From positions 53,654 to 117,653 of the forward strand of contig JAPPFD010000002.1 of assembly GCA_028823995.1 (NCBI GenBank): DNA of 64,000 bases, given 5' to 3'. Made by a program: the position numbers and the translations under genes. This DNA is from a bacterium (GTDB taxonomy: Bacteria; Actinomycetota; Acidimicrobiia; Spongiisociales; ZC4RG35). The notes under the pieces were generated by a model that worked only from the letters and a program-made list of their open reading frames with translations, made no database searches and had not been told where the DNA came from. This document shows, in pieces, positions 22,247 through 48,403 of this stretch. Positions within the stretch are counted from its first letter, which is position 1; the number at the start of each line of letters is the position of its first letter.

Positions 22247-23031
22247 ACGATCGCCAACCCAAACACAGAGCCGTGATGGACCTCGGCCGAGAAGAATGGC
22301 TGGAGGCGCTCGGAATGGACGCCGCAGACATCCCGAAAGCAGTGATCATGGAGGGCTCCTGGTGGCGAGCCCAACGCACCGAGTGGCGCCTGAGCTACCT
22401 GGACGACGTGCGTGAACTCGCCTTCCCAGACATGTTCTACGGCTTCTGGCAAGGATCACCCGTCGTCTACTCCTGCGTCTACGGAGCACCAAGGGCCGTC
22501 GAGTTGGCACACCTGTTCGGAGTACTGGGCACCTCCCGGATGGTGATAATCGGCACCTGCGGCGCTCTAGATCCCGGGTTGGCTACCGGGGACGTGGTCG
22601 TCCCTTCGCGAGCCGTGGCTCGGGAGGGCGTAGCGCACCTCTACAAGACAGTGACCTCAGACCCCGGCATCGTCCGCTCCGACCGGCACCTGACCGCGCA
22701 AGGTAGGACTGCCCTGGAGAACAGGGGTATCAGAACCGCGGACTCCCTACATCTGACCTGGAGTTCCATCTTCGCCCAGAGCGGAGCCATGGTCGAGGAA
22801 TGGCGGGAGACAGCCTACGGATCAGTCGACATGGAAGCCGCCACACTCTTCGCCGTAGCAAAACACTTCGGCTTCGCCGCCACAGCGCTGCTGGTGGTCT
22901 GGGATCAACTCACCGCCGATCGAAGCTTCCTCGACCCCCTAACGCCTGAGGAGCAAAGCAGTCTTGAGGTTGCCAACATGACCGTATTCGAGGCAACTCT
23001 GGACATAGTGTTGAGTCCAGACCACCTTTGA
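22243..23031 (+). CDS. Nucleoside phosphorylase (PNP/UDP family 1)
   Basis: ATG in ORF 21097..23031 overlapping the upstream stop (ATGA). PNP_UDP_1-like motifs (IIGTCGALDP, MEAATLFAVA). 262 aa. Confidence 0.7.
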   Translation: MNDRQPKHRAVMDLGREEWLEALGMDAADIPKAVIMEGSWWRAQRTEWRLSYLDDVRELAFPDMFYGFWQGSPVVYSCVYGAPRAVELAHLFGVLGTSRMVIIGTCGALDPGLATGDVVVPSRAVAREGVAHLYKTVTSDPGIVRSDRHLTAQGRTALENRGIRTADSLHLTWSSIFAQSGAMVEEWRETAYGSVDMEAATLFAVAKHFGFAATALLVVWDQLTADRSFLDPLTPEEQSSLEVANMTVFEATLDIVLSPDHL

Positions 23032-23143
23032 CACATAAACCGGATTACCACAGACTCGCCTTAAGATCGAAGAAAAGCATAACCAACGATTTGGAGGTCA
23101 TCCACGGTCCTCTTCTTCTGGGACCACGACCCAGACAACTCTC

Positions 23144-26100
23144 CTATCCATCGGATCCTAGCAACTCGATCATCCCTTCAGGTAAACCAAAGCGTTCCGA
23201 TACCCTGACTTCCCTAAAACGGCTTGTCCTTCTTCCCAGGGATTCCTCAAGTAAGCTGACGTAGCGCCTTTGTGCACGATAGTCTCTTGCCGGCATCAAT
23301 GCCTTCAATGCTATCACAAACCCCGTTGCTTCATCACCCAGTAATCGATTGTTTTCCAATGTGTTAACTATTCTATTGAAGGCATCGCCGCGTGAACACC
23401 CGATATCTTGGGCAATGGATATCAGATCTTCCTTGCCGCCACCTAGCCAGACATTCTGTTGGCAGAGCTTGATCAACAGACCTGCTAGCTTTTCGTTCGG
23501 CTTGTCAAGCGCTTCGACTTTCTTGATCTCCAGTCCCAGATCGCCTAACTGCCCTCGTTCTGCTACTGCCCCCAGAACCGGCAACATCGCCGTGTCCCTA
23601 TTCAGAACATCGTAAGCTCTCCGCAAGACTTCAACACCATCGTCGACCAGTGACGAGTTACCAACGTGGCAGTCAAAGGAGGAGTGTCTTCTTCCCACGG
23701 TAAGAAATAGCTTTGCCCCAGCAGTTGGTGATTCACTGACCAAGTTAGCCAACACATGAAGGGGAACAGGCTGTCCCGCAGGAAGCACTCGATAAATCTC
23801 TTCTAATGTATCCACATCCGTCTGCCGTAAGGTAGGAAAGTCCTCTAAGCGTGCGGGGAAGGAGTAAAGGAACATTAACCAGTTGATAACTTCAGCAACG
23901 AACTGACGGGACCTACCGGAAGGCAAATTACTAAACAGTGGTATCACATCTTCTAAGGTTCTTCTATCCGCATCCATAATAAACATCGGATTAAAAACCT
24001 TCAACGGCGATAACGTTACTGGAAATCCAGTAGTCCCAATTCTCGCGTCGAACGGCAAACGCTGATCCGCCATTGAAAGCACATCTTCCCACACGATACC
24101 CTCATCGAACCAGCGAGTCTCGGCTGTGATCCAATCGTCTTGGTCGCCCAATCTCCCTTCTTTGGCTCCGTCTGCCAGCTCCAATAGCTTTTTCGCATCG
24201 GTACATGACTCCAGACACGCTACAATAGGCCACGGTAATGTTCGCCACACAGTCCTATTCGCTGCATGGTCCTCGTCAAAGGAGACCTTTGCAAAGGCCT
24301 TAAGTGTACTCGCTAACATATCTTTGGAAGGTGCCTCTAAGAATCTGCCAGCCCACTTATACGGTAGCCAACTGGGATGCCAGTCAGAAATCGCATTAAG
24401 CGTTTGCAAAACCGTCGCGCTACCAGGAGTCAACCGGTTAATTGGCCCGTAGGACAACATCGTATCTAAAACCGTGACTCTAGGGCCGCCGTGATGTCTA
24501 GGAGACTCCAGTATTGAAATCGCGGCTTTTAGGGTCGGGTCCACGTCCTGTCGCTCCAATAATGCCCTTCGTTTTTCTGACTGGAACACACCTACAAACG
24601 TACCAATGGGTGTCCTCGGAATTAGGCGCAGCACCTGCTCAGTTGCCCAACCGTTCTTAGTGTGGTCAGTGTCGGCTAACAGAATATCAACCTGGTCTTG
24701 GACGCCATTAGGCCAATAACTGTTTGCCATGTCGGTAGCCCAGTCGACGTCATTAGCGACAAGCGCAAGTAAACAATTCCAAGCTCCTAAGAACTTAACA
24801 TGGTCGCTACCTGTAAGTCGCAGCCCTAATTCGTCTCGGTAAATGGTCTCCATTTGAGAATCATACACATTAGCTAACTGTGCATGCAGACGGGGGTTGG
24901 CCTTATCCAGCGCTCTAATCGCCAGTCTCCCTAGCAGCGTTTTGTATTTCGGCTGCCGCCGTGCCGAACCCTCCTCTAGCAAGGCGATGGCCAGGTCCGC
25001 ACCCACTAAGTGCAAACCTTCCCCCTCGTTACCGTCTTCTTCATTCAAAGCGGCACAAGTTGAATGCACCAACTCGCGAAGCTCCTGCCGCTGAGCAAAA
25101 CATTTGCCCGCAGCAAACAAGAAAACGTTCCTCCAGAATGGGATGGGAGCTATTTCCTCTAATCGCGCCTGGATGTCGGGATAGGTGTCCTCCACTAAGC
25201 TCTCTGCCGCCATAAACTCTTGCAACGAGCGGATTTCAAATCCTATTCTCTCCGCTTCCATTTCGACCAAAAACACCAAACGCTCCGAGGCCGCTGCCAC
25301 GATCTGTTCGGCGATAGTGCGTCGATCCTCCTCCGGATGTTCCTCCGCCCTTAGCCGCGCTTCTACAAGAGACACAAATCGATGGCGATCCAACAAAGCG
25401 TCTGTTCTGCCTGTCCTTTCAGAGTCCACTTGAAGGATGAGGCCCACTTGGTTGTGGATAGTCCTAATGTCGGGTTCGTATTCACTCAATATCCTTGACG
25501 CAGAGATGTCCCTTTCCATTTCTCTGTCGTATATGACGTCGTAATATGAATTAAACAGATTCCAACGCGCTTGTGGAGGCTGCCCTAAACGATCTACCAA
25601 CGCAGTCATAATCGTTACCTGCAACGGTGTCCTCATCAAACGACTGGTTGATGGATCTCCAAAAGCCCGCCTTAACCGGCCTAACACCTTTTCTTTCCGA
25701 TCTTCGTCAGCACCATACCGGACTGCAGCGAGCCGCTGCGCATAATGCCAACCAAGTTGTTCCGACAACTCGGCCAGATGTTGGTGTTGGTAATACAGCG
25801 GTGAAAAGTCCTCATTGTAGCCTTGGGGGCGACTAGTCGCTATTGAGAGAATGTCCGCGTTAGCACTGCTGGCATCCACCCAGAACTCTCTAATGGCACG
25901 CAGAACTTCATCTCTGTTGCTTGAAGGTGGTACCTCATCTAATCCGTCAAAAATGAAGACACTTGGATAGACCGCGAGGAACTGACGTAGATCCGCCGGT
26001 GATACCTCGGCATCAGTGCGTCTCTTTATTTGTGATGACAAATAGCCAAGCACGGAGTATATTGGCGACTCCGAACTGGGAGCCAAAGCCTTGGCAAAAT

Positions 26101-27205
26101 CGTTTAATGTCAATTTAAAAGGAAAGCGAGGCACGACTTTATGCGAGATGTTTTCGCTTTCGCAATGGTGCTGAATCGTTCCTAAGGCACCCTTTGTGGG
26201 CGGAGACCATGTATGCTCAGGTTTTCTCGCGATGACCGCAGCACGGAAGATTTGGCAAATGAACTGCGTCAACGTAGTCTTTCCCTGACCTGGACCTCCG
26301 ATCAATACAAACCGCCCGCGGGATGCTCCAGCTAAACCTGCCTCAATGCGGTCTGGCACTGGAGAGGCACCCACAGAAGCAGGATCAAGACGTTCGGAAG
26401 ATGCGGCCAATACGTTTCTGATGAATCCTTCCTTAAGCTGAGGCCGGCCGACATCATTAAGATCCTCAAGGGCCTCGCCCAGCATATGTGACCTAATCAT
26501 ATTGGGCTCATGTTGAATAGGCAGGTCAACAAACACCGTGGCTAGAGGTATAGGTTCGTTTACAGTGTGACCAGCTTGCTCCAGATTGACGTACTCATCG
26601 CTTAGCAATTCCTTTTCCAAAAACCGCGTCATGGTAGTATGCATGTCAACCGATGCCGGTTTTAGTGTCGCAAAGGCGGCCGCGAGCACATCGCCTGGCG
26701 TTATGAAAGTGGAATAGGTGGTCCTAACTTCAGGATAAATGTCAAGGAATATGCGAATCTGGTCATAGTCCCATATGGCGTAGTCCTTGAGATGTGATTG
26801 CGATTTGAATTCCTTTAGAACGGCAAATGCCTTGTCTTTGGAACCTTTATCCTTTACTGGTGTTAGAACCACATTCGTAGCGTAAATGAAGAAATCAGGT
26901 GACCGTATGTTGGTGTCTGGGTCGGTATACTTTTGTAACTCGTCCCTTAGTTGCTCTACTGCCCATAGCCCGTCTTCATAGACATTGCCGGAACGCTGCC
27001 GGAATTTTGCCTGTACAACGCCATAACCATCCCAGCCATCTAAATGCGTGGGGTAAGGTACCTTCCGTTCGAAAGTCGCCTCTCGCCCACCGTCGGGGCC
27101 ATCCCCAAACACCACAATCCCAGGGCCCAAAACCTTAGCTGCTAACGCTTGAATCAACTGCTCAAACGAGCGGGGAGATAAAGTTGAAAGGTTGTAGTCA
27201 GCCAT
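23144..27205 (-). CDS. Bacterial NLR-like (bNACHT / Avs-like) STAND NTPase with an N-terminal Mrr-type restriction-endonuclease domain and a long C-terminal helical sensor-like region (1353 aa). Putative antiviral defence protein.
   Basis: Residues 1-70 match the Mrr_cat pattern (SFEQLIQAL...GDGPDGGRE...GVVQAKF). NACHT-type NTPase: Walker A at about aa 300-312 (FVLIGGPGQGKTT), Walker B (VFIFDGLDE) and the NACHT-specific TSR motif (ILSIATSRPQGY). About 750 C-terminal residues are helical-repeat-like. The gene is about 50% GC against a host background near 68%. Confidence 0.75.
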   Translation of the reverse strand: MADYNLSTLSPRSFEQLIQALAAKVLGPGIVVFGDGPDGGREATFERKVPYPTHLDGWDGYGVVQAKFRQRSGNVYEDGLWAVEQLRDELQKYTDPDTNIRSPDFFIYATNVVLTPVKDKGSKDKAFAVLKEFKSQSHLKDYAIWDYDQIRIFLDIYPEVRTTYSTFITPGDVLAAAFATLKPASVDMHTTMTRFLEKELLSDEYVNLEQAGHTVNEPIPLATVFVDLPIQHEPNMIRSHMLGEALEDLNDVGRPQLKEGFIRNVLAASSERLDPASVGASPVPDRIEAGLAGASRGRFVLIGGPGQGKTTLTQFICQIFRAAVIARKPEHTWSPPTKGALGTIQHHCESENISHKVVPRFPFKLTLNDFAKALAPSSESPIYSVLGYLSSQIKRRTDAEVSPADLRQFLAVYPSVFIFDGLDEVPPSSNRDEVLRAIREFWVDASSANADILSIATSRPQGYNEDFSPLYYQHQHLAELSEQLGWHYAQRLAAVRYGADEDRKEKVLGRLRRAFGDPSTSRLMRTPLQVTIMTALVDRLGQPPQARWNLFNSYYDVIYDREMERDISASRILSEYEPDIRTIHNQVGLILQVDSERTGRTDALLDRHRFVSLVEARLRAEEHPEEDRRTIAEQIVAAASERLVFLVEMEAERIGFEIRSLQEFMAAESLVEDTYPDIQARLEEIAPIPFWRNVFLFAAGKCFAQRQELRELVHSTCAALNEEDGNEGEGLHLVGADLAIALLEEGSARRQPKYKTLLGRLAIRALDKANPRLHAQLANVYDSQMETIYRDELGLRLTGSDHVKFLGAWNCLLALVANDVDWATDMANSYWPNGVQDQVDILLADTDHTKNGWATEQVLRLIPRTPIGTFVGVFQSEKRRALLERQDVDPTLKAAISILESPRHHGGPRVTVLDTMLSYGPINRLTPGSATVLQTLNAISDWHPSWLPYKWAGRFLEAPSKDMLASTLKAFAKVSFDEDHAANRTVWRTLPWPIVACLESCTDAKKLLELADGAKEGRLGDQDDWITAETRWFDEGIVWEDVLSMADQRLPFDARIGTTGFPVTLSPLKVFNPMFIMDADRRTLEDVIPLFSNLPSGRSRQFVAEVINWLMFLYSFPARLEDFPTLRQTDVDTLEEIYRVLPAGQPVPLHVLANLVSESPTAGAKLFLTVGRRHSSFDCHVGNSSLVDDGVEVLRRAYDVLNRDTAMLPVLGAVAERGQLGDLGLEIKKVEALDKPNEKLAGLLIKLCQQNVWLGGGKEDLISIAQDIGCSRGDAFNRIVNTLENNRLLGDEATGFVIALKALMPARDYRAQRRYVSLLEESLGRRTSRFREVRVSERFGLPEGMIELLGSDG

Positions 27206-27576
27206 GTTTATGCATCGGCTGCTGTTGTGTGATAGGCGTATCCGGGCGAACCTTTACACGGTCCGGGGCATGCCAGGAAAAGAATTTGAGCATGATGAGA
27301 GAATACTAGCCGTCGACACATCGACTCTGCCGCAAGCCTAGGTGCATGAGGTTGTTCAATGTTGGGTAGTTTCCATACATGCTGCCCCCGAAGCCGCACC
27401 CCCTTTTGCCCCAGAATCCGCGCCCCACACTTCGCCGTAGCTAAACAGTCGGGATGACTGCGACCGCCCTACTGGCACTTCGGCATCAGGGTACAGAGCT
27501 TTCAGGGCCGCTCCATGCGTGTCACACCCGGATAGGTATCCTGGCGGGGGAGCCCATCCCAGGAGGATGATTGAGA

Positions 27577-27924
27577 ATGCGGTTGGAAGACCTGAACCCC
27601 GAAACGGTGGTCGATGGTCTCGTGGCGGGGGAACGGGCCACCGTGGTGGCCGTCTATTGGCATGGTGCGGGGACTGTCCAAGTGGTGTATCGCACATCCC
27701 AAGGTGTGTCTGAGAGGCTTCTGTCCCGCGACGACGAGGCCCGCCTGTTGGTTGCCACCGCAGAGCGTCCCTGGACGCTCGATGCGCCTGGTCACGCTTT
27801 CAAACTCGCATCAGAAGCGCTCCGCATCCACTTGGCGCATCTGTTCGATCCCTACCTAGCCGTCCAAGGGTCGAACATTAGCTGCATGTTGTGGAGGGAA
27901 TCGGCACTGCAGGCCAGAGGTTAG
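27577..27924 (+). CDS. Hypothetical protein (115 aa), divergent from the NLR-like gene
   Basis: Strong RBS aggagga 9 nt upstream of ATG 27577; a TTG at 27571 is also possible. No recognisable domain. Low-GC context. Confidence 0.4.
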   Translation: MRLEDLNPETVVDGLVAGERATVVAVYWHGAGTVQVVYRTSQGVSERLLSRDDEARLLVATAERPWTLDAPGHAFKLASEALRIHLAHLFDPYLAVQGSNISCMLWRESALQARG

Positions 27925-28074
27925 TCCCCTAAACAAAACTCCGTCTTACGGATCAGGGTTGCTAGCTCAACTGGTGTGGAAAGGAGATCTTCCTTTTCTC
28001 TTGCTACGATGGCACTTCGTCCTTGGTGACAGGATCCGTCGTGGTGGGTTGCCGAGAAAAGAGATCTCTGGGGA

Positions 28075-29187
28075 GTGCTGTTTTATAGTATGTTGTCTGA
28101 CTGGGTGGCTTCGATGGAGATGCTTGTGGTGTTCCAGAGAGAGTGTCAGCGAATCTTTGCAGAGTTATCGGAGTGGAATGACGGCCATCCAGAGTGGCAG
28201 AAGATGTTTGGTGGATGGTTGGGGTTGATGTTTACAGCGGTGGTTTTGGCTGGGTCGGGATGGGCAGATCCGGTCCGGCTAGAGGAATTCCTGCGCCTTA
28301 TTGTGACTCCGCTAGCCGTTTTCTGGGGCTTTGGGGAGTATGGCAGAAGATGGCAGTCTGACGACCATCCCGGCGAGGTGGGGCCTTCTTCCGCTGAGGG
28401 TCGAGAAATCGATTGGCGGCGGACATTAGTAGGAGTGACCCACTTGGCAGGAATAGTTGCCGTCCTCGCCATCCTGATTCTTGTGGTTTTCGTTGATGGG
28501 CCTTCGGAACTGTGGACTGCGTTTGCCCCTGGAGTTCTCATTTTTGTGTGTCTAGCGATTACCAACGCTGTCGCTCGTGCAGTGGGCAGCAGGCCGGCCC
28601 GTTTCTCTGTTGCGCACACCGTGCCTGACGTCGGGAGGGGCCGAGTGCTGGCAGCCACGTTGATAGACAGTGTTATGGCGTGCGTATTTTCGCTTTTCCT
28701 GCTGATGATGCTCCTGGCGGCTTTGGCAGTAGAGGACCAGGTGGGTTCCGACATGCTGCCCTTTACAAACAAGGACTTGGGAAATTCCTTCGATGGCATC
28801 TGGATACCGTTGATGGTGTTCTTGGCAGTCTTCTTGGTGTACCGGTGGGTCGCCCTTCGGAGATGGGGATGTGGACTGGGTGGGCTTTCGATGCGATTGC
28901 AACTCCGTGACCACGGGGGCGAGAGGCCAGGACGGTTCAGGCTTCTCCTAAGGTGCGCATTCGATACTGTATGTATGGGTATGGCTGTGGCCGCGGTTGC
29001 GTTCCTCCCGGCCGATCGGGGGGTCCCGGCGATGGGCGCGGTTGTAGTGATCGCTGTTTGCGTTGGTACCAATGAAGGCAGAAGCCTGACCCATGTACTG
29101 TCGGGCACACAGTACGAACTGCGACAACGCGGTGGACCCAGCCAAAGATCGAACCCAAATGGCGGGATAGACCCACTTGAAACCTAG
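28075..29187 (+). CDS. Hypothetical polytopic membrane protein with an RDD-family-like C-terminal region
   Basis: At least 6 hydrophobic helices. The C-terminal segment resembles RDD-domain proteins (RWGCGLGGLSMRLQLRDHGG..RLLLRCAFD). Start uncertain. GC about 54%. Confidence 0.45.
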   Translation: MLFYSMLSDWVASMEMLVVFQRECQRIFAELSEWNDGHPEWQKMFGGWLGLMFTAVVLAGSGWADPVRLEEFLRLIVTPLAVFWGFGEYGRRWQSDDHPGEVGPSSAEGREIDWRRTLVGVTHLAGIVAVLAILILVVFVDGPSELWTAFAPGVLIFVCLAITNAVARAVGSRPARFSVAHTVPDVGRGRVLAATLIDSVMACVFSLFLLMMLLAALAVEDQVGSDMLPFTNKDLGNSFDGIWIPLMVFLAVFLVYRWVALRRWGCGLGGLSMRLQLRDHGGERPGRFRLLLRCAFDTVCMGMAVAAVAFLPADRGVPAMGAVVVIAVCVGTNEGRSLTHVLSGTQYELRQRGGPSQRSNPNGGIDPLET

Positions 29188-29541
29188 TAGCAGGGTGGTT
29201 CAAACCAACACCTGTTCCCCTATGCCAAAGCAGGTCCCCTGTCGGATCCTGTCCAGCAGGGGTGCCACAGGACAAACGGGGAGCCCTCAGCAGTTGGACG
29301 CCGATAATCATGGTCCTAGCGGCAATAACAGCGGGCGTGCTCATCGGCGGGTACCCAGGAGCCGGGCCCGGGTATAGGCGTATCCGCCATAGCACTGCAC
29401 ACCTGGCGAGCAGGATCCAAACGGAACTAATCCACTGTGTCGGGTGCAAGTTATCCCAAAAAGAGCTGACGCCTCTTGGCCACCGGACCTGGGAAGTGCC
29501 AGATAGGGGCCCTCGGGGATGCGGAACCGAAGTCGGATCGG

Positions 29542-30759
29542 CTAGGCGGCGGGGTCGACCAGGCGTCCTATGAATAAGAAGGCGCCGGTTTCGGGGTGAA
29601 CGATGGCCCAGAGGAAGGGGCGGTCGGCGACCACCGTGAGGTCCGGTGGTGGTGGTGCTGACTCCTTGAAGGCCATGGCGGTGGCTGCAGCGGCTTCGGT
29701 GCCTTTCTCGTCGACGATCACCTTGGCGCCGTGGAGGGCGGCGGTGATGAAGATGCCCGGGGCGATGTCATCGAAAGGCGCTCCGGCGCAGAACCCCCGG
29801 GGGCAGAGCCACTCGAACAGGTCGGTGGGCGGCAGGGTTTGTTCCCACTTGGGCATGGTTAGATCGACAAAGCCCTGTTGGGCAATGTCCTCAAGGCCGG
29901 TCAGGTCCTGTGAGTCGAGCAATTCCTCGACCGCTGGAAGTCCTCCTGGGTCGTGGGGCACGATCAGCCACATGGCCAACCGGCCCCCCTGGTATGGGAG
30001 TTGTACCGCGTCGGCGCCGTCGAGTCGGACGAAGCGACGAGCGACCGGCTCCCGGTCGCGCATGAACGGTACCGTCACCGCGAGGCCGTCTCCGGTGGTG
30101 AACGGGCCATCTTCGGTCCACTCGGGGAGGAACGGCTCTGCCCAGTCGGCCTTCAGGTACACCGTGTTCACCAGGACCAGTTCCTGGCTTTGGACGGTCT
30201 GTTCGGTGACGATGGTGGGAACCAGACCGCGGGTGGTGTCCGATACCCATCCGTTGATGGTCTCGGCCGCCGACGCGCCGTCGTCGAGGTCGATCGGGTG
30301 GACCGCCGCTCCGTAGTGGGCGCCGGCAATCTCCAAGAAACCGGGCAGTGGAGAGAACTCGTCGTCGGGGAAGAGACGGTTGGCCACCTCCAGGGTGGTC
30401 GGTTCCACCGAGGCGGTGGCCAGCATCAGATCGACCGCATTGGCCGCAGGGTGAAGATCAAGCTCGGGGAACCCGAAGATCTCATCGAGCACCGCCCCGG
30501 TGTCTCCGGATGCGCCGGCCCGGCTGAGGCTGAAAGCCAAACCGAGGCTGACCGGACTGGAGACCGCGTTGCCCACCAGGTGGCGATGAAAGTCCCAGCC
30601 GGCCGCGTTGGCTCCGGCCACCCAATCCGCCGTCGGCGCCAGGGGATCGGCTGGCAGCCGGTCGGCCACCGGCTCCAACAACGTCGTGGTGGTGACCGAG
30701 GGACCGCATGCCGCGGTCAAGAAACACAGGAGAACGAGAAACCTGAGCAATTTTGTCAT
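29542..30759 (-). CDS. Serpin-family protease inhibitor, lipoprotein (bacterial serpin)
   Basis: ATG at 30759 (MTKLLRFLVLLCFLTAACG is a signal peptide plus lipobox). Serpin hinge GTEAAAAT, then the reactive-centre loop. C-terminal serpin signature (VADRPFLWAIVHPETGAFLFIGRLVDP). About 405 aa. Confidence 0.8.
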   Translation of the reverse strand: MTKLLRFLVLLCFLTAACGPSVTTTTLLEPVADRLPADPLAPTADWVAGANAAGWDFHRHLVGNAVSSPVSLGLAFSLSRAGASGDTGAVLDEIFGFPELDLHPAANAVDLMLATASVEPTTLEVANRLFPDDEFSPLPGFLEIAGAHYGAAVHPIDLDDGASAAETINGWVSDTTRGLVPTIVTEQTVQSQELVLVNTVYLKADWAEPFLPEWTEDGPFTTGDGLAVTVPFMRDREPVARRFVRLDGADAVQLPYQGGRLAMWLIVPHDPGGLPAVEELLDSQDLTGLEDIAQQGFVDLTMPKWEQTLPPTDLFEWLCPRGFCAGAPFDDIAPGIFITAALHGAKVIVDEKGTEAAAATAMAFKESAPPPPDLTVVADRPFLWAIVHPETGAFLFIGRLVDPAA

Positions 30760-31034
30760 AGCTTGTTCGATCGTAAGAAGAGCCTCAGAGAACCTCGTTG
30801 TCAACTCTAGAACGCGGCCTAGCAGATGTGCGGAGACCACATGGTCGGCTATTCGAAGGGACGCCGGGGCCAATCGAGGAGGACGGCCCACTTATCATCC
30901 TCGACCAATGGCCTCTTTGATTGACCACTTCTCTCCTCCAAAGCGCCCCTCAACGCGACTCGGGGAGGCGAAGTGTCACACCCCCTTCCCATGCTTGCTG
31001 CAAGCAGCATTCCAGCAGGGAGGAGGCCTACATC

Positions 31035-31784
31035 TTGAGTAACCGATCTGGGATCGAGTGGACTGAGACGACGTGGAACCCGACGACTGGTTGCGACCAG
31101 GTGTCCATGGGGTGTGACAACTGCTACGCGCTGACTTTCGCGAAGCGTCTCAAGGCCATGGGCCAACCCAAGTATCAGAACGACGGTGATCCTCGCACCA
31201 GCGGTCCCGGATTTGGACTCACCCTACACCCGGATGTCTTGGCCGAGCCAAGGCGATGGAGGGCGCCTAGGTTGGTGTTTGTGAACTCAATGAGCGACTT
31301 GTTTCATCCCGAAGTCCCTCTCGAGTTCATCCAAGAGGTGTTTAGTGTGATGGCCGAAACGCCACAGCACACCTACCAGATCCTTACCAAGCGTTCCAAG
31401 CGACTTGCATCTCTCGGGCCCCAGCTGGACTGGTCCCGAAATGTTTGGATAGGTGTCAGCGTTGAAACCAGTCGCTATGTCTTCCGCATCGACCACCTCA
31501 GAACCGTTCCTGCCGAAGTCCGCTTCATCAGTGCGGAACCTCTACTGGGTCCTCTTCCCAATCTGGATCTCTCGGGCATCCACTGGCTGATCGCAGGGGG
31601 AGAGAGCGGCCCCGGGGCAAGACCCATCGAAGAAGCATGGGTCCTCGACTTGCGGGATCAGTGTGCAGCCGCCGACGTAGCCTTCTTCTTCAAGCAGTGG
31701 GGAGGCCTCCACTCAAAATCCGGTGGCCGGGAACTTGATGGTGCTCTATATGACAATTTGCCATCACTCAGCAAGGCAAGCTAG
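31035..31784 (+). CDS. Phage Gp37/Gp68-family protein (DUF5131) with an N-terminal three-Cys motif
   Basis: TTG start at 31035 preceded by ggaggagg. N-terminal IEWTETTWNPTTGCDQVSMGCDNCYA matches the family hallmark (C-x6-C-x2-C). About 250 aa. Confidence 0.7.
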   Translation: MSNRSGIEWTETTWNPTTGCDQVSMGCDNCYALTFAKRLKAMGQPKYQNDGDPRTSGPGFGLTLHPDVLAEPRRWRAPRLVFVNSMSDLFHPEVPLEFIQEVFSVMAETPQHTYQILTKRSKRLASLGPQLDWSRNVWIGVSVETSRYVFRIDHLRTVPAEVRFISAEPLLGPLPNLDLSGIHWLIAGGESGPGARPIEEAWVLDLRDQCAAADVAFFFKQWGGLHSKSGGRELDGALYDNLPSLSKAS

Positions 31785-31798
31785 GCCGGGCCAACATT

Positions 31799-32785
31799 GT
31801 GCGGGTATGGGGATGCTGGACCAAAGGCAAGTTGGACATTCTGCGGCGGTATCTGGATGCCTTCACCACAACGACCAAGCACAAGTCAGATGAAAGGATT
31901 TATATTGATGCTTTCGCTGGTGAGCAGGAAAACCGACTTCGTCTGACAGATGAGCCTCTGGAAGGTTCGGCAAGAATTGCGTTATCAATTGAAGATCCAC
32001 CCTTCACCCGATTGCGTTTCTTTGAAACCGAAGCCAACGCATCCGCGCTTGAGTCATCGTTGAGGCGCGACTACCCAAACCGTGATCTGGAAGTGTTAGG
32101 TGGGGATTGTAATGAACTCATCCCCAGGGAACTTGCTCGGTTGCGGCGGCTCAATCGAGTTCCGACGTTCGCCTTTATTGACCCTAACGGTATGGAGGCG
32201 GAGTGGCGAACGTTAAAGGCATTGGCGCATTTCAAAGAGGGACACCGGTGGAAAGCCGAGATTCTCTACTACTTTGCACCGCCGATGTTTACGCGAGTAT
32301 TGCCGGTTGATGGCCAACCGGTCAGCAAGAAAAACGCTGCGAGAATTGATCGTCTCTACGGTACGAAGGACTGGCGTTTCATTTACGAGGCCCGCCTACG
32401 TTGTGCCTTAGAGCCTTGGCAAGCCCGACAAGAGTACCTCAATCTGATGAGATGGCGCATGGAAGAATCCTTAGGATATGAATGGACACTCCCGATTGAA
32501 GTTCGAAATGAGCGGGGCGTCGTCATCTATTACATGATCTTTGCCACTGATCACGAAGCGGGTGAACGCATAATGGGGAGCGTTTACGCTAAAGCTGCCG
32601 AAGAGTTTCCGATAATGCGCGAGAAGGCGCGAAGGATTCGCAAACAGGAAGAAAACAAAGAACGCGGCGTAACAAGCCTTTTCGGTGAGGACGATGGAGA
32701 ACTCTGGGGCCCAATTCTGCCAGGAGAACGGTTTTACGAACACGAGCCACCTACCAGGCCATGGTTCCTGCGCGAGTGCCCTTGA
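31799..32785 (+). CDS. Three-Cys-motif partner protein TcmP-like, with Rossmann/methyltransferase-like motifs
   Basis: Immediately downstream of the DUF5131 gene. N-terminal WTKGKLDILRRYLDAFTTT resembles the TcmP family start. IYIDAFAGEQ and FAFIDPNG resemble MTase motifs I and IV (weak). GTG start. About 48-50% GC. Confidence 0.55.
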   Translation: MRVWGCWTKGKLDILRRYLDAFTTTTKHKSDERIYIDAFAGEQENRLRLTDEPLEGSARIALSIEDPPFTRLRFFETEANASALESSLRRDYPNRDLEVLGGDCNELIPRELARLRRLNRVPTFAFIDPNGMEAEWRTLKALAHFKEGHRWKAEILYYFAPPMFTRVLPVDGQPVSKKNAARIDRLYGTKDWRFIYEARLRCALEPWQARQEYLNLMRWRMEESLGYEWTLPIEVRNERGVVIYYMIFATDHEAGERIMGSVYAKAAEEFPIMREKARRIRKQEENKERGVTSLFGEDDGELWGPILPGERFYEHEPPTRPWFLRECP

Positions 32786-32972
32786 ACTCGATGGAAGTGT
32801 CACTGGCCTGCGAGCATCACAGCACTGCTGGCAAGAACGATTTAGCCAACCCCCGTTGTTTCATCACCCGGTGCTACAACTAAGCGATAGATCGAGAGGG
32901 TGCCCCAGCAACACTTCCGCGTCGGACTTCCCGACCTCGATCGCCAACCCACATGGGCATCGGAAGGTCAGA

Positions 32973-33827
32973 TCAGTTCTGGTCCCCACCCACAAAGGAA
33001 GAAAGCACCTCCGGTATCGCCTCCCATGCAACCGAGCGGGTGAGACGATTCAGTGTTCCCACCCCCACACTCTTCTGTCCACCAAGTTCCTCATCGAGCA
33101 CTGAGGTTGGGACCACCCAAAATACCCAGCACAGTGGATCCTGAACATCCTTATTGGTTGCGGGTACGGTGTCATGAAGGCAGAACACATAAATGTCAGC
33201 CAGACGCCGGGGCGGATCGAAGGTTTGCCACTGGTCTGTGTCGGGATCCCATGCCATCTTCCTAGGCCTAATGTCGAATCTCGGTGTCGACATCTGTTCG
33301 AGGTTCCACGTCTGGCTGATTCCCGAGGCCTTGACTTCGATGGTGAGGTTGCGGTAGCGGAGATCATACGAGTTCCACTCGGTTCGATGGTCGGCGTCAT
33401 CAATGATGCCGAGTGCTTGACCGACCAGCCACTCGGCATATAAGCCTCTGTTGACGTTGTCAACAAGATTCCCGACGGCCCAACGGTTGAAGCTCCCGGG
33501 TGGAGGGCTGGGGGGAGGCTTAAGCCAAACAATGGGAATGTCAGGAGCAGCAGGCGACAACAAATCCATCGCGTGGTACATCTCATCCTGGTAGTAGAGC
33601 CACCAGCGCCCCATGGGCCCTCCTGCCCAGCTGTCAAACCCCAGTTCTATCCCGTTGCCAAGCTTGATAAGCGCTATGGCTTCGAATTCCCACCATTCGT
33701 TGTACCGGGGGCCGGCAAACAGTTGGGGGCCAAAGGCCAGGTAGGAATGCTCTCGCTCGATCAGCCGATATACAGCTACCGATCCTTTGGTGATCCTGTC
33801 GGGTTCTCCGTTGCGTTCTCTGTTCAT
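32973..33827 (-). CDS. Hypothetical protein with a C-terminal PD-(D/E)xK-nuclease-like signature
   Basis: The E...D...E-x-K arrangement (YAEWLVGQALG ... YDLRYRNLTIEVKASG ... DIYVFCLH) is typical of the restriction-endonuclease fold. Second gene of an operon with the HNH-DUF433 gene (ATGA overlap). Confidence 0.45.
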   Translation of the reverse strand: MNRERNGEPDRITKGSVAVYRLIEREHSYLAFGPQLFAGPRYNEWWEFEAIALIKLGNGIELGFDSWAGGPMGRWWLYYQDEMYHAMDLLSPAAPDIPIVWLKPPPSPPPGSFNRWAVGNLVDNVNRGLYAEWLVGQALGIIDDADHRTEWNSYDLRYRNLTIEVKASGISQTWNLEQMSTPRFDIRPRKMAWDPDTDQWQTFDPPRRLADIYVFCLHDTVPATNKDVQDPLCWVFWVVPTSVLDEELGGQKSVGVGTLNRLTRSVAWEAIPEVLSSFVGGDQN

Positions 33828-34384
33828 AGAGTCTTGGCCCTAACGGTTCGCAGAAGCTCGATCTGACGGTCGATGATCCGCTCGGCATCCGACATCTCGA
33901 TGCCCTCGTAGCAATCCAGGAACTGGTCGAGGGTTATGCCTTCGTTGAGCTCCTCGAATAGCTCGGCAATAGGCAACCAAGTACCGGCAAATACCCACTC
34001 ACCGCTAAGACGGTCCGTACGTCTCTCAACAGCTCCGCATGTTTCCCAGATCGACTGGCGTTGTTCTGAGGACTTGCCGAATTGCCTCACTACAAGGGGT
34101 GGCTGCCACCCGCAACCGCAATTCCGCTCGGCCGCGAGGCGACGCTCTGGTGATCGGTAGTCAATGGGTTGATCGGTTTTCCGTCGATTGCAAGTTTGGC
34201 AGAGGGTTTGGAGGTTGTTCCAACAGTCTGGCCCGTCAGCGGCTTGCGGGACTATGTGGTCGATCTCAAGATCCTGGGAGCTTCCGCAAGAAAGGCATTG
34301 ATCCCCATCGAGACTGAACACCCGTTCGCGACGTCCCTTCTTTTTACTCATACGTGGGAATCTTAACGAGCGGGTGTGACGCAT
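33824..34384 (-). CDS. HNH endonuclease fused to a C-terminal DUF433 domain
   Basis: HNH motif CLSCGSSQDLEIDHIVPQAADGPDCWNNLQTLCQTCNRRK. C-terminal GTWLPIAELFEELNEGITLDQFLDCYEGIEMSDAERIID matches DUF433. The likelier start is ATG at 34351 (MSKKKGRR). Confidence 0.7.
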   Translation of the reverse strand: MRHTRSLRFPRMSKKKGRRERVFSLDGDQCLSCGSSQDLEIDHIVPQAADGPDCWNNLQTLCQTCNRRKTDQPIDYRSPERRLAAERNCGCGWQPPLVVRQFGKSSEQRQSIWETCGAVERRTDRLSGEWVFAGTWLPIAELFEELNEGITLDQFLDCYEGIEMSDAERIIDRQIELLRTVRAKTL

Positions 34385-34574
34385 TCCCCTCGGGTTCGTG
34401 CCGAAGCAGGGGAAAGCGGCAACACCCGCGCCGGTTACCGCCTCGAAACTGCTAACAGCAACACCAGAACGGCCGCGCCATGACCCACCATGCCGGCTTC
34501 ATCCGCCGGAGATACTGACCGGGTAGGCAACCGAGGCCCGTGCAACGCCGATTTCTCTCTCCTCCTAGGGTCTC

Positions 34575-34600
34575 GGGATTTGTCATAATATAATGATCTT
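34575..34600. promoter_or_regulatory. AT-rich near-palindrome (tgtcataatataatgatc) just upstream of the GntR gene; candidate operator or -10 region
   Basis: Seen in sequence about 5-25 nt upstream of the gntR-family start. 12 of 14 positions of tcataatataatga are dyad-symmetric. Coordinates are approximate, because text and ORF track disagreed by 1 nt here. Confidence 0.3.
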
Positions 34601-34602
34601 CC

Positions 34603-35352
34603 ATGAGCGGCGGCTTGGACAGACACCTTCAACGTGGCCCTCTCCCACTGTGGTTCCAGATCAAGGAACAACTCAGACGGGCCATCGATATGGGCGAGTG
34701 GGCGCCGGGCGAACAGTTGCCAACCGAGAGCGAACTCACCGAGTTCTTCGGTGTCAGCCGGATCACGGTCCGTACTGCTTTCGAGCGGCTGGGCGACCAG
34801 GGTCTGGTTGAACGGACTCCCGGGCGGGGCACCTTCGTGGCCCAACGCAGTTTCGAACAGCCGGTCACTCGTCTGGCCGGATTCCACGAGGACATGGCTA
34901 GCCGTGGCTTCGTCCCCTCCGCTCACACCCTCTCAGTCGGAGTCGTTCCCGGACCCTCCGATGCGGCGTCGGCACTGGGTGCCGAGGGCGAGGACCTGGT
35001 GGAGGTCCGGCGTCTCCTCTCAGCCGACAACACGCCCATGGCTTTCCAACACGGCTATCTGCCTACCTGGGTGTTGGGAAACGGCGAGTTCACCACCGCC
35101 GACCTTCACAACAAGTCGCTTTATCGGATCATGGAGGAACGGACCGCGTCGCATCCGGCGACCGCCGAAGGGACCATCGAAGCGGTCCGGGCTGACCGCA
35201 CCCGAGCCGACCTGCTGGACGTGCCGGAGGGATCGCCCCTCCTCCTCGCCACCCGCTTGTCTCTCGATAGGTCCCGACGCCCGGTCGAGTGGGTGCGGCT
35301 TTGGTACCGGGCGGACCGCTACCGCTTCCGGGTGGAGTTGCAACTCCCATGA
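34603..35352 (+). CDS. GntR-family transcriptional regulator (HutC subfamily, UTRA effector domain)
   Basis: N-terminal winged HTH (LPTESELTEFFGVSRITVRTAFERLGDQGLVERTPGRGTFV) and a C-terminal UTRA-like domain. 249 aa. Confidence 0.8.
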   Translation: MSGGLDRHLQRGPLPLWFQIKEQLRRAIDMGEWAPGEQLPTESELTEFFGVSRITVRTAFERLGDQGLVERTPGRGTFVAQRSFEQPVTRLAGFHEDMASRGFVPSAHTLSVGVVPGPSDAASALGAEGEDLVEVRRLLSADNTPMAFQHGYLPTWVLGNGEFTTADLHNKSLYRIMEERTASHPATAEGTIEAVRADRTRADLLDVPEGSPLLLATRLSLDRSRRPVEWVRLWYRADRYRFRVELQLP

Positions 35353-41087: not shown

Positions 41088-41401
41088 TCACATGGATACA
41101 CACCTACCGCCCGCGGCCCGACTGGTACGAGGCCACCAGGCAAGCCCGGGACCGGTTGCTCGCCGGCTGGGACGGCGCAGCTTCGGTCTCGATCGAATCC
41201 GGCGCCACCCGGGTGGGTCCGCTGTCGATCCGCGGCCAGTCCCGCCAGGAGCACCTGGAGATCTGGACCTTCACCGACCTAGAGGAACTCGAGAACCACT
41301 GGACCCGGCTCCGGAAGCTTGGCTACGCCGATTGGCGGGAGTCCGAGAACACCGTCGCCACCGAGATCGTCGAGAGCAGGCTCACCGGACCGGCACACTG
41401 A
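41084..41401 (+). CDS. Hypothetical small protein (105 aa)
   Basis: GTG start overlapping the upstream stop (GTGA), with GGAGG about 10 nt upstream. No confident family. Confidence 0.4.
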   Translation: MITWIHTYRPRPDWYEATRQARDRLLAGWDGAASVSIESGATRVGPLSIRGQSRQEHLEIWTFTDLEELENHWTRLRKLGYADWRESENTVATEIVESRLTGPAH

Positions 41402-41464
41402 GGGTCCGGGTCCCTAAGTTGCCCTGAGTCCCCGGCGTCGAAACCGACGGGCGCCGTGGTCCAG

Positions 41465-43330: not shown

Positions 43331-43412
43331 CTTGACGCCTCCATGCTGTACACCGCGCCGGAAGAGCATGGCCGACTAGCCATCCACGGACGCCGTAGCG
43401 AAGGGTGACGCT

Positions 43413-48385: not shown

Positions 48386-48403
48386 CCTGAACAGTCACTT
48401 CCG

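What the first reader, a model, noticed from the sequence alone, without database searches (positions are those of the whole stretch)
23032..34500. About 11.5-kb accessory region with reduced GC, packed with defence-like and nuclease genes, inserted between catabolic operons
GC drops from about 68% to about 50-55% between the nucleoside-phosphorylase stop (23031) and the GntR regulator (34603). The region holds the NLR-like gene, a small divergent gene plus membrane protein, a serpin, a DUF5131/TcmP pair and an HNH-DUF433 + PD-(D/E)xK operon. I could not recognise a tRNA, integrase or direct repeats, so the boundaries and insertion mechanism are unresolved. The serpin gene itself (29.5-30.8 kb) is near host GC, which suggests the region may be a composite of at least two acquisitions.
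Basis: seen in the sequence. Interest (0 to 1): 0.7.

Follow-up and report, generated by a model that had tools for sequence, protein, structure and literature searches.

The report
Defence-gene island at a recombination hotspot
An 11.6-kb low-GC patchwork of immune-type and nuclease genes sits between two nutrient operons of an uncultured sponge-associated actinobacterium, at a spot where each related species carries a different set of anti-phage genes; it is a clear but fairly ordinary bacterial defence island.

Summary
GC falls from 0.62-0.70 to 0.47-0.58 between the phosphorylase stop (23031) and the GntR start (34603). The serpin gene forms a host-like patch at 0.65. Tetranucleotide distance is 9-16 SD above the flanks.

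Comparison with 26 related genomes (sponge-associated Acidimicrobiia) fixes the variable segment at 23008-34577. Downstream of the same phosphorylase gene, sister species carry other cargo: SIR2-HerA, NurA-HerA, type I restriction, TIR, Hma, dGTPase, type IIG. One relative has only a 2-kb metabolic gene there. This is a hotspot, not a single insertion.

The window's cargo has three blocks with separate histories:
- A (23008-27878): a NACHT-fold NTPase with an Mrr-like nuclease head, a scrap of phosphorylase 3' end, and the first 104 codons of hmaA.
- B (27879-29487): an orphan RDD membrane protein.
- C (29488-34403): a lipoprotein serpin, the DUF5131/TcmP pair, and an HNH-DUF433 plus NhoI-like PD-(D/E)xK operon.

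There is no tRNA, integrase or boundary repeat. Duplicated flank fragments and a mosaic phosphorylase 3' end point to homologous-recombination exchange; this is inferred. It is a new member of a known kind, of moderate interest.

The parts
22243..23031 (+). PNP_UDP_1 nucleoside phosphorylase gene (262 aa). It is the last gene of the conserved nucleoside uptake and catabolism operon and forms the left flank of the hotspot.
   Evidence: Pfam PF01048, 1.5e-21. Gene call in the source scaffold. Conserved in 26 relatives.
22400..23007 (+). Mosaic 3' two-thirds of the phosphorylase gene. This is a recombined flank that travels with the cargo.
   Evidence: Identity to the closest relatives steps from 94-100% to about 80% at roughly 22400. 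Pairwise identities among 12 genomes are flat at 77-85%, with no clade structure, whereas MFS shows clades at 92-97%. dS is 0.56-0.94 and dN/dS is 0.11-0.16.
23008..34577 (.). The variable (accessory) segment, 11,570 bp.
   Evidence: blastn and alignments against relatives. Composition.
23144..27205 (-). A 1353-aa STAND NTPase with a NACHT fold and an N-terminal Mrr-like nuclease motif (GDGPDGGRE...VVQAK). Walker A is GGPGQGKTT (303-311) and Walker B is FDGLDE (419-424). The roughly 600-aa C-terminal region is uncharacterised. Block A.
   Evidence: Weak, sub-threshold Pfam NACHT/NPHP3_N/AAA hits. PADLOC Aga_REase hit on residues 3-136, 2.4e-6. More than 1230 homologues, and all but a few of the 120 listed are near full length. 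Invariant motif residues. AF2 model of residues 1-750, pLDDT 76. Foldseek top 28 hits are all NLR or Avs3 chains (NLRC4, NOD2, NLRP3, NLRP9; best E 1e-8; Avs3 2e-5).
27415..27485 (+). Decayed remnant of a phosphorylase 3' end, a scar of an earlier junction.
   Evidence: A 27-nt core at 27421-27447 matches 22839-22865 at 24/27. A 97-107-nt remnant lies at the orthologous position in L034.
27577..27924 (+). Truncated hmaA. The first 104 codons of an Hma-system SNF2 helicase are followed by 11 unrelated codons and a stop. Homology ends at 27878.
   Evidence: PADLOC HmaA positions 2-106 of 1176, 1.3e-30. L034 carries full HmaA, HmaB and HmaC at the same place. L013 carries a full HmaA. Breakpoint alignment.
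28114..29187 (+). RDD-family multi-pass membrane protein (357 aa), nearly an orphan. Block B spans 27879-29487.
   Evidence: Pfam RDD 1.4e-8. Hydropathy. Only 2 homologues in the protein collection, both in contexts rich in mobile elements. No relative found in the JGI metagenome scan.
29542..30759 (-). Serpin (405 aa) with a lipoprotein-type signal peptide (FLTAAC) and a canonical inhibitory hinge (EKGTEAAAATA). Its composition is host-like. First gene of block C (29488-34403).
   Evidence: Pfam Serpin 1.6e-66. Sequence. GC 0.65 and GC3 0.77. Tetranucleotide z 0.3-1.3. Shared with L036-L037 (87% aa) and, as a 5' fragment, with L033 (90% nt).
31035..31784 (+). DUF5131 (phage Gp37/Gp68-like) protein with a three-Cys motif, CDQVSMGCDNC.
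   Evidence: Pfam 2.7e-97. PADLOC PDC-M41B 1e-108. PHROG 2045, 1.9e-76. Start inferred from the RBS and TTG.
31799..32785 (+). TcmP (three-Cys-motif partner protein), 328 aa.
   Evidence: TIGR04474, 3.6e-52, above its cut-off. PADLOC PDC-M41A 1.1e-28. Homologues in Gordonia and Synechococcus phages.
32973..33827 (-). A 284-aa protein. The C-terminal roughly 170 aa form a PD-(D/E)xK nuclease domain of the NhoI/Eco15I type. The N-terminal roughly 110 aa are found only in the six closest homologues (P0122-P0126, P0129).
   Evidence: Invariant D155, E164 and K166 in 33 homologues. AF2 core pLDDT mostly above 85. Foldseek: NhoI 8rpx, E 8e-4, prob 1.0; Eco15I N-terminal domain 8q5m.
33824..34384 (-). 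HNH endonuclease fused to DUF433 (186 aa). It sits upstream of the nuclease gene and overlaps it by 4 nt.
   Evidence: Pfam HNH 7.6e-13 and DUF433 4.7e-6. One homologue is called as a single fused protein, P0126.
34578..34596 (+). ATTTGTCATAATATAATGA, the first conserved bases of the right flank, just upstream of the GntR start. It is probably an operator or promoter element.
   Evidence: Identical in the window, L018 and L033, while everything upstream of it differs.
34603..35352 (+). GntR/UTRA regulator, the first gene of the conserved right-flank operon (GntR-PfkB-BtpA-SBP-permeases).
   Evidence: Gene calls and Pfam. Orthologues in L018 (87% aa) and L033 (96% aa).

Best explanation
Window 23008-34577 is the current cargo of an integrase-free chromosomal hotspot in an uncultured sponge-associated Acidimicrobiia bacterium. 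The hotspot lies between the 3' end of a nucleoside phosphorylase gene and the promoter of a GntR-controlled sugar operon.

The cargo is a patchwork of three blocks with separate histories.
- Block A holds a NACHT-type STAND NTPase with an Mrr-like nuclease head. It also holds two scars: a scrap of phosphorylase 3' end and the first 104 codons of hmaA, left from an Hma system that was deleted.
- Block B holds an orphan RDD membrane protein.
- Block C holds a lipoprotein serpin with host-like composition, the DUF5131/TcmP pair, and an operon of HNH-DUF433 plus an NhoI-like PD-(D/E)xK nuclease.

Turnover. Shown: the breakpoints, the mosaic flank and the duplicated flank fragments. Inferred: DNA from related strains enters by homologous recombination anchored in the conserved flank. 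This would be either a single-crossover (Campbell-type) integration of a circularised fragment or a homology-facilitated insertion. Either route brings a foreign phosphorylase 3' end with the cargo and leaves the old one as a remnant.

Function (inferred). The cargo provides layered immunity against phages and mobile DNA.
- The NACHT protein would sense a phage component through its C-terminal region, oligomerise and switch on its nuclease head.
- The HNH/NhoI-like pair would cut foreign DNA, possibly modified DNA.
- The DUF5131/TcmP chemistry is unknown.
- The serpin is a passenger, more likely aimed at host or environmental proteases.
For: Boundaries. Homology with 26 relatives ends at about 23007 and resumes at 34578.

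Hotspot. Downstream of the same phosphorylase gene, sister species have low-GC cargo (0.54-0.58) of a different kind:
- DUF1883-TIR, UvrD and PLD-SNF2 (L008);
- type IIG methylase and dGTPase (L033);
- NurA plus HerA (L010);
- SIR2 plus HerA (L013, L014);
- HmaA (L013);
- type I restriction-modification (L015, L017);
- full HmaABC (L034).
L018 has only a 473-aa amidohydrolase-like ORF between the phosphorylase and GntR genes.

Blocks.
- L034 shares 23082-27377 and 27482-27878 at 84-86% nt. Its hmaA then continues where the window's copy breaks off.
- L036-L038 share 29488-34403 at 85% nt, next to the same BtpA operon.
- Block B is found only in the window's own population.

Recombination.
- Identity to the nearest relatives steps from 94-100% to about 80% inside the phosphorylase gene.
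- That segment has star-like divergence of 77-85% in 12 genomes, with dS 0.56-0.94 and dN/dS 0.11-0.16. These are old alleles imported by recombination, not local hypermutation.
- Phosphorylase or MFS fragments are duplicated around cargo in the window, L034, L033, L012 (a 3.4-kb second copy at 82%), L030 and L018.

No mobile-element machinery. No tRNA, no Rfam family, no boundary repeats, no recombinase among the ten ORFs scanned, and intergenic gaps of at most 372 bp.

Gene identities. The assembly is reproducible.
Against: - No gene in the window belongs to an experimentally validated defence system. PADLOC gives only candidate families (PDC-M41/M30) and a dead hmaA. The immune function is therefore by analogy.
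- Blocks A and C differ from their counterparts in L034 and L036 by about as much as the adjacent core genes do. They could be old and vertically inherited, with loss in other lineages, rather than recently imported.
- All genomes compared are metagenome bins or contigs. L008 and L033 are linked only by binning.
- The right flank shows no identity step like the left flank.
- The Campbell-type route is inferred from scars. No circular intermediate or donor was seen.
Confidence: 0.75

Rival explanations
1. A single integrative mobile element (genomic island, ICE/IME or prophage remnant) inserted by a site-specific recombinase at an attachment site in the 3' end of the phosphorylase gene.
For: The left breakpoint lies inside the 3' end of a gene, and truncated copies of that 3' end occur inside or beyond the cargo. 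Elements that target gene 3' ends also leave this pattern. Distant homologues of the NACHT and RDD genes sit near integrase fragments elsewhere.
Against: No integrase, transposase, tRNA or boundary direct repeats were found, and intergenic gaps are at most 372 bp. The three blocks are shared with different relatives. The duplicated flank pieces vary from 27 nt to 3.4 kb and are only 74-89% identical. They are homology arms, not a fixed att core.
Confidence: 0.07
2. An old, vertically inherited part of the chromosome whose low GC reflects gene-specific constraints, with independent losses in some relatives. On this reading it is not a horizontally exchanged region.
For: Blocks A and C lie next to the same flanking gene (PNP for A, GntR/BtpA for C) in relatives about 84% identical. 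Their divergence is similar to that of the adjacent core genes, and L036 shows similar GC dips.
Against: The nearest relatives (95-97% in MFS) have none of these genes. Instead each carries different low-GC defence cargo. There is a sharp identity step and star-like alleles in the phosphorylase 3' end. Scars of replaced genes are present: the hmaA stump and the phosphorylase remnant. The tetranucleotide signature is 9-16 SD from the host.
Confidence: 0.12
3. A metagenome assembly chimera that joins DNA of different organisms.
For: The source is a metagenome scaffold. NCBI labels the bin Caldilineaceae although the flanks match Acidimicrobiia. The sample-2 assembly breaks inside the serpin gene.
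Against: Four contigs from other assemblies (sample 2 and two Logan runs) reproduce 22174-30146 and 30384-36930 at 99.98-100%. The serpin gap is bridged by the collinear L036 and L037 contigs from other samples. L034 independently joins MFS, phosphorylase, NACHT and hmaA.
Confidence: 0.02

Closest known systems
Defence islands at chromosomal hotspots of gene flux, as described for enterobacteria, Pseudomonas and Vibrio
   Same: A conserved pair of core flanks. Low-GC cargo that differs between close relatives. Cargo dominated by immune and nuclease genes. Elevated diversity of the adjacent core gene.
   Different: The host is an uncultured sponge-symbiont Acidimicrobiia. No recombinase or tRNA is present. 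The scars are duplicated flank fragments of 27 nt to 3.4 kb. This particular window holds only candidate systems plus a serpin.
Bacterial NLR-like anti-phage STAND NTPases (Avs and bNACHT proteins)
   Same: Three-part layout: an N-terminal nuclease-type effector, a central P-loop NTPase with a NACHT fold, and a long C-terminal region. It is a single gene in defence or mobile contexts. Foldseek hits NLRC4, NOD2 and NLRP3 (E to 1e-8) and Avs3 (2e-5).
   Different: No PADLOC Avs or bNACHT model matched at E 0.01 or better. Pfam NACHT scores below its cut-off (19.2 against 26.7 bits). The C-terminal region has no recognised repeats or target. No phage test exists.
Hma system (HmaA SNF2 helicase, HmaB DUF1156 methylase, HmaC ATPase)
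   Same: Codons 1-104 at 27577-27888 match the HmaA N-terminus (1.3e-30). They are orthologous to the full system in L034.
   Different: Only a stump remains. HmaB and HmaC are absent, so the system is dead here.
PADLOC candidate systems PDC-M41 and PDC-M30 (DUF5131 plus TcmP; NCBIfam 'three-Cys-motif partner')
   Same: Both genes are present, adjacent and co-directional, with strong model hits (1e-108 and 1e-28; TIGR04474 above its cut-off).
   Different: The pair is uncharacterised. The only paper in the library that mentions DUF5131 is a radical-SAM survey. The pair also occurs in a temperate Gordonia phage, next to the immunity repressor. Whether it acts in defence, counter-defence or DNA modification is open.
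NhoI and Eco15I methyl-directed (type IV-like) restriction endonucleases, PDB 8rpx and 8q5m
   Same: A PD-(D/E)xK core with the D...ExK motif. The fold match has probability 1.0 at 17-21% identity.
   Different: TM-scores are modest (0.45-0.51 on the target). The protein has an extra 110-aa N-terminus and is translationally coupled to an HNH-DUF433 protein. Shorter homologues occur without that partner. Substrate is unknown.
Classical integrase and tRNA-linked genomic islands
   Same: Atypical composition, accessory gene content and insertion at the 3' end of a gene.
   Different: No integrase, tRNA or att repeats. Block-wise mosaic history.

Membership tests
Defence island / variable hotspot | The same conserved flanks carry different accessory cargo in related genomes. 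| tested here: met
   In 26 relatives homology stops at 23007. It resumes at 34578 in the relatives that carry the GntR operon (L018, L033). Cargo differs in every species examined.
Defence island / variable hotspot | Composition departs from the host genome. | tested here: met
   GC is 0.47-0.58 against 0.62-0.70. Tetranucleotide distance is 9-16 SD above the flank windows, except over the serpin.
Defence island / variable hotspot | Contains recognised (validated) defence systems. | tested here: inconclusive
   In the window PADLOC finds only candidate families (PDC-M41/M30) and an hmaA stump. The sister loci hold recognised systems: SIR2-HerA, type I RM, Hma, dGTPase, type IIG.
Integrase-mobilised genomic island | A tyrosine, serine or DDE recombinase lies within or beside the island. 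| tested here: not met
   No recombinase family appears in any of the ten ORFs scanned. Intergenic gaps are at most 372 bp.
Integrase-mobilised genomic island | A tRNA or tmRNA target and flanking direct repeats (att). | tested here: not met
   ARAGORN finds 0 genes in 64 kb. Rfam finds 0. No repeat links about 23.0 kb with about 34.6 kb.
NLR-like STAND NTPase (NACHT clade) | A P-loop NTPase with Walker A and Walker B motifs. | tested here: met
   GGPGQGKTT (303-311) and FDGLDE (419-424); most of these residues are invariant and the rest at least 90% conserved in 33 homologues.
NLR-like STAND NTPase (NACHT clade) | NACHT fold (NBD, helical and winged-helix modules). | tested here: met
   AF2 model of residues 1-750, pLDDT 76. 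The Foldseek top 28 PDB hits are all NLR or Avs3 chains, with E from 1e-8 to 8e-5.
NLR-like STAND NTPase (NACHT clade) | Sequence membership in Pfam NACHT at the gathering threshold. | tested here: not met
   19.2 bits against a cut-off of 26.7, covering the P-loop only. A profile search of PDB sequences finds nothing significant.
NLR-like STAND NTPase (NACHT clade) | A C-terminal sensor domain (repeats) and ligand-triggered oligomerisation. | not tested
   Residues 750-1353 were not modelled because of the 1200-aa limit. No domain hit. Biochemistry is needed.
Hma defence system | Intact HmaA, HmaB and HmaC. | tested here: not met
   Only HmaA residues 1-104 remain. The full trio is present in L034.
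DUF5131/TcmP pair (PDC-M41) | Both partners are present and adjacent. | tested here: met
   31035-31784 and 31799-32785. Pfam 2.7e-97, TIGR04474 3.6e-52, PADLOC 1e-108 and 1e-28.
PD-(D/E)xK nuclease superfamily (the 284-aa protein) | A D...(D/E)xK catalytic motif on the restriction-endonuclease fold. | tested here: met
   D155, E164 and K166 are invariant. Fold match to NhoI and Eco15I, prob 1.0. No Pfam or PDB sequence hit.
Inhibitory serpin | A serpin domain with a reactive-centre-loop hinge. | tested here: met
   Pfam 1.6e-66 over 341 residues. The hinge EKGTEAAAATA and the lipobox were read from the sequence. Inhibition was not tested.

The most novel reading that the evidence does not exclude
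Two things could be new.

(1) The phosphorylase 3' end may act as a portable homology arm that moves with defence cassettes. That would give these recombinase-poor sponge symbionts an integrase-free cassette-exchange mechanism, which would explain the star-like allele pattern and the nested flank remnants.

(2) The window may hold up to three untested immune systems:
- a NACHT-Mrr family of more than 1200 members that matched no PADLOC Avs or bNACHT model at E 0.01 or better;
- the DUF5131/TcmP pair;
- an HNH-DUF433 plus NhoI-like two-nuclease operon.
Probability: 0.3. Interest if true: 0.55.

Novelty: new member of a known kind. Interest (0 to 1): 0.4.

Why it matters
Sponge symbionts are reported to be enriched in defence systems (PMC11706023, abstract). 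How that repertoire turns over in uncultured lineages is not documented in the material I could consult.

This locus gives a concrete, well-bounded hotspot. One pair of flanks carries about a dozen different cargos across sister species. The scars are readable: an hmaA stump, phosphorylase remnants and a foreign second copy of the flank. They point to exchange by homologous recombination rather than by a mobile element.

The locus also flags three uncharacterised candidate immune modules that could be cloned and tested.

None of this overturns current ideas. It extends the defence-island picture to a new host group and supplies candidates.

Tried and rejected
- tRNA/tmRNA scan and Rfam at gathering thresholds: nothing found.
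- Direct and inverted repeat search over 22-35 kb: no repeat joins the two boundaries. Only the 27-nt D1 pair proved meaningful, and only after L034 showed a longer remnant at the orthologous place.
- tblastn of the phosphorylase protein against the window: no second copy detectable at protein level.
- Promoter and terminator consensus scan: fewer hits than in shuffles, so uninformative for this high-GC actinobacterium.
- Sequence searches of the PDB with the NACHT-like protein, its family profile and the 284-aa protein: nothing significant. Fold search was needed.
- PHROGs: no hits for the NACHT-like, RDD, TcmP or 284-aa proteins.
- Exact-protein look-ups of the flanking phosphorylase and GntR: only the same population, so no strain with an empty site.
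- JGI metagenome scan with the RDD protein: no relatives.
- Literature search for DUF5131 and TcmP: one incidental mention only.
- Idea that the phosphorylase 3' divergence reflects positive selection or hypermutation: rejected, because dN/dS is 0.11-0.16 with dS up to 0.94.
- Idea that the right flank shows a matching identity step: not seen.
- Reading the 113-aa minus-strand ORF at 27356-27697 as a gene: rejected in favour of the plus-strand hmaA stump.

Full report
**1. The observation**

GC in 500-nt windows is 0.62-0.70 up to 22999. It falls to 0.47-0.52 across 23000-27250 and is 0.53-0.60 to 29500. It returns to 0.64-0.67 over 29500-30750, drops to 0.51-0.58 to 34500, and is 0.63-0.70 beyond that.

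Per-gene values agree: the large P-loop gene 0.50, RDD 0.57, serpin 0.65 (GC3 0.77), DUF5131 0.58, TcmP 0.52, the 284-aa gene 0.56 and HNH 0.56. Flanking genes are 0.63-0.69.

I compared the tetranucleotide profile of 2-kb windows with the rest of the window. It lies 9-16 SD above the mean of 61 flank windows for 23-29 kb and 9-11 SD for 30.5-34.5 kb. It lies only 0.3-1.3 SD above over the serpin. The flank set was defined by leaving out the suspect regions, but the effect is far too large for that to matter.

Four contigs from other assemblies (a second sample and two Logan runs) reproduce 22174-30146 and 30384-36930 at 99.98-100%. The junctions are therefore not assembly artefacts.

**2. The genes**

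- **Phosphorylase.** The 644-aa ORF at 21097-23031 is a frame artefact of high GC. The real genes are an MFS transporter (21020-22246) and a 262-aa PNP_UDP_1 phosphorylase (22243-23031).
- **The 1353-aa protein.** By sequence it gets only sub-threshold P-loop hits (NACHT 19.2 bits against a cut-off of 26.7), and no PDB sequence hit even with a family profile. An AlphaFold model of residues 1-750, built on 33 homologues (pLDDT 76), matches NLRC4, NOD2, NLRP3 and NLRP9 as its top hits. The top 28 hits are all NLR or Avs3 chains (best E 1e-8; Avs3 at 2e-5). 'NLR-like' is therefore justified at the fold level.
- **Its N-terminus.** It carries the invariant pattern GDGPDGGRE...VVQAK. From my own knowledge I read this as an Mrr-type D...QxK nuclease motif. 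PADLOC matches the same residues to an Argonaute-associated REase domain (2.4e-6).
- **Its family.** The family is large: more than 1230 hits, and all but a few of the 120 listed are near full length. A distant member sits in a defence and mobile-element context. The N-terminal and NTPase part recurs on actinobacterial plasmids with other C-termini.
- **The 284-aa protein.** It has no family hit. Its 129 homologues share invariant D155, E164 and K166. The modelled core matches the methyl-directed endonuclease NhoI and the Eco15I N-terminal domain (prob 1.0).
- **Its partners.** Its gene overlaps the upstream HNH-DUF433 gene by 4 nt. One homologue is called as a single fused protein. Shorter homologues occur without that partner.
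- **DUF5131/TcmP.** The pair matches PADLOC candidate systems PDC-M41 and PDC-M30 strongly. It is also present in the temperate Gordonia phage BaxterFox, next to the immunity repressor. The only paper found that mentions DUF5131 is a radical-SAM survey.
- **Serpin.** It has a lipoprotein-type signal peptide and a canonical inhibitory hinge.

**3. Where the window comes from**

The window is part of a 331-kb sponge-metagenome scaffold. A scan of species-representative genomes with the phosphorylase protein returned 26 loci. Nearly all are sponge-associated Acidimicrobiia MAGs, including Candidatus Spongiisociaceae.

The left operon (DeoC, nucleoside hydrolase, dehydrogenase, ABC transporter, MFS, phosphorylase) is conserved in 22 of them. 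In the closest genomes identity is 95-100% aa across most of the operon, falling to about 87% in the phosphorylase.

NCBI labels the bin Caldilineaceae. That is probably a labelling or binning error.

**4. Boundaries and the hotspot**

Nucleotide homology with every relative ends at about 23007, eight codons before the phosphorylase stop. Each genome has its own C-terminal tail.

On the right, homology resumes at 34578 with the motif ATTTGTCATAATATAATGA, just upstream of the GntR start. The variable segment is therefore 23008-34577.

In L018 only a 2-kb stretch lies between the phosphorylase and the same GntR-PfkB-BtpA-SBP operon. It holds one 473-aa amidohydrolase-like ORF; that reading is from its sequence and was not scanned.

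In the closer relatives the DNA after the phosphorylase is low-GC (0.54-0.58) and encodes different immune genes:

| Locus | Cargo downstream of the phosphorylase |
|---|---|
| L008 | DUF1883-TIR, UvrD, PLD-SNF2 |
| L033 | type IIG methylase, dGTPase (on the GntR side; no full phosphorylase on this contig) |
| L010 | NurA-HerA |
| L013, L014 | SIR2-HerA |
| L013 | HmaA |
| L015, L017 | type I restriction-modification |
| L009 | QueC fusion, HTH-M78 |

This is a defence hotspot, not a one-off insertion.

**5. The cargo is a composite**

- **Block A (23008-27878).** L034, a relative about 84% identical in core genes, has MFS, phosphorylase and the NACHT gene (86% aa), followed by a complete HmaA-HmaB-HmaC system. 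The window is collinear with it over 23082-27377 and 27482-27878. Then hmaA breaks off after codon 104, followed by 11 unrelated codons and a stop. The 'small divergent gene' is a dead stump.
- **Block C (29488-34403).** L036-L038 carry serpin, DUF5131, TcmP, the nuclease and HNH in the same order. Identity is 85% nt, next to the BtpA operon, which is 83% identical. The serpin 5' part also occurs in L033 at 90% nt, beside unrelated genes. The serpin, with host-like composition, is the most widely shared part and probably the oldest resident.
- **Block B (27879-29487).** The RDD protein is found only in the window's own population. It has just two homologues in the 5.8-billion-cluster protein collection, both in regions rich in mobile elements.

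**6. Mechanism**

There is no tRNA, Rfam family, recombinase or boundary repeat. Instead the left flank carries recombination signatures.

- Identity to the nearest relatives is 94-100% through MFS. It steps down to about 80% at about 22400, inside the phosphorylase gene.
- In that 3' segment all pairs among 12 genomes are 77-85% identical, with no clade structure. MFS resolves clades of 92-97%.
- Synonymous divergence there is 0.56-0.94 with dN/dS of 0.11-0.16. These are old alleles under purifying selection, brought in by recombination.
- Pieces of the flank are duplicated around cargo:
  - a 97-107-nt phosphorylase remnant between the NACHT gene and hmaA in L034, and its decayed counterpart at 27415-27485 in the window;
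  - a 440-nt phosphorylase 3' fragment next to GntR in L033;
  - a 3.4-kb second copy of permease-ABC-MFS-phosphorylase at only 82% identity in L012;
  - short repeats in L030 and L018.

I infer that DNA from related strains enters by recombination anchored in the conserved flank. This would be either a single crossover with a circularised fragment or a homology-facilitated insertion. It brings its own phosphorylase 3' end and strands the resident one. The scars are shown; the route is inferred. The right flank shows no comparable identity step.

**7. Function**

Function is inferred by analogy with Avs and bNACHT proteins (my own knowledge).

- The NACHT protein would sense a phage component through its C-terminal region, oligomerise and activate its Mrr-like head.
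- The HNH-DUF433 plus NhoI-like operon is a candidate two-nuclease restriction module, possibly modification-dependent.
- DUF5131/TcmP has unknown chemistry. Its presence in phages leaves defence, counter-defence and DNA modification all open.
- The serpin is more likely directed at host or environmental proteases.
- hmaA is dead.

PADLOC recognises none of the intact genes as a validated system.

**8. Verdict**

Blocks A and C lie next to the same flanking gene in relatives about 84% identical, so they are not recent. The closest relatives carry other cargo, so the region is accessory.

This is a well-resolved example of a known phenomenon in a little-studied host group. A paper I consulted reports that defence systems are enriched in sponge symbionts (PMC11706023).

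Interest is moderate. The value lies in the readable recombination scars and in three untested candidate immune modules.

Noticed in passing
window 41300-56600: A second compositionally atypical stretch (GC 0.59-0.62, tetranucleotide z 3.5-7). It starts with a HigB/HTH_3 toxin-antitoxin pair (41465-42086, minus strand) and carries a luciferase-like monooxygenase and oligopeptide ABC transporter genes. It may be another accessory region, with metabolic cargo.
   Followed up: no
window 21020-23031: The 644-aa ORF at 21097-23031 is an out-of-frame artefact typical of high-GC DNA. The real genes are MFS (21020-22246) and a 262-aa phosphorylase (22243-23031), overlapping by 4 nt.
   Followed up: yes
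whole window (source scaffold ROBB21-1_SAMN13943213 scaffold_31): NCBI names the proteins as from 'Caldilineaceae bacterium' (locus tags OXJ55_*). The flanking operon is 95-100% aa identical to Acidimicrobiia sponge MAGs. This is probably a mislabelled or mis-binned MAG.
   Followed up: partly
L012 4470-7837 and 13735-17092; L030 7696-7759 and 9996-10059; L018 9701-10168 and 19555-19811: Relatives carry second copies or fragments of the permease-ABC-MFS-phosphorylase flank around their cargo. The copies are 81-91% identical. L012 has a 3.4-kb foreign-looking duplicate. In L018 the fragments bracket the whole GntR operon.
   Followed up: partly
L045 (Gordonia phage BaxterFox KU963263) 2992-4649: A TcmP homologue (gene 42, 36% aa) lies between the immunity repressor and the integrase. 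A DUF5131 homologue (67% aa) lies convergent with it, on the strand opposite to annotated genes 40 and 41, so it looks unannotated.
   Followed up: partly
window 30146-30384 (inside the serpin gene): The second sample's assembly breaks here: one contig ends at 30146 and the next starts at 30384. In RHO3_bin_31 the serpin homology stops at 30298. This may be a strain-level recombination breakpoint inside the serpin.
   Followed up: no
window 34578-34596: ATTTGTCATAATATAATGA is identical in the window, L018 and L033, immediately upstream of the GntR start codon. It is likely the operator or promoter of the GntR operon, and it marks the exact right edge of the variable segment.
   Followed up: partly
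L009 13934-15742: A 602-aa fusion of PfkB-like, nucleoside 2-deoxyribosyltransferase-like and QueC domains lies next to an HTH-M78 (IrrE-like) protein in a sister species' cargo. It may be a 7-deazaguanine-type DNA modification or defence module.
   Followed up: no
window 13031-13591: A small DUF2335 gene with locally low GC (0.59, GC3 0.65), upstream of the nucleoside operon.
   Followed up: no
window 28114-29187: The RDD membrane protein is nearly an orphan. It has two homologues (65% and 38% identity) among 5.8 billion protein clusters. One lies beside smpB among hypothetical genes, the other among IS elements and integrase fragments.
   Followed up: yes
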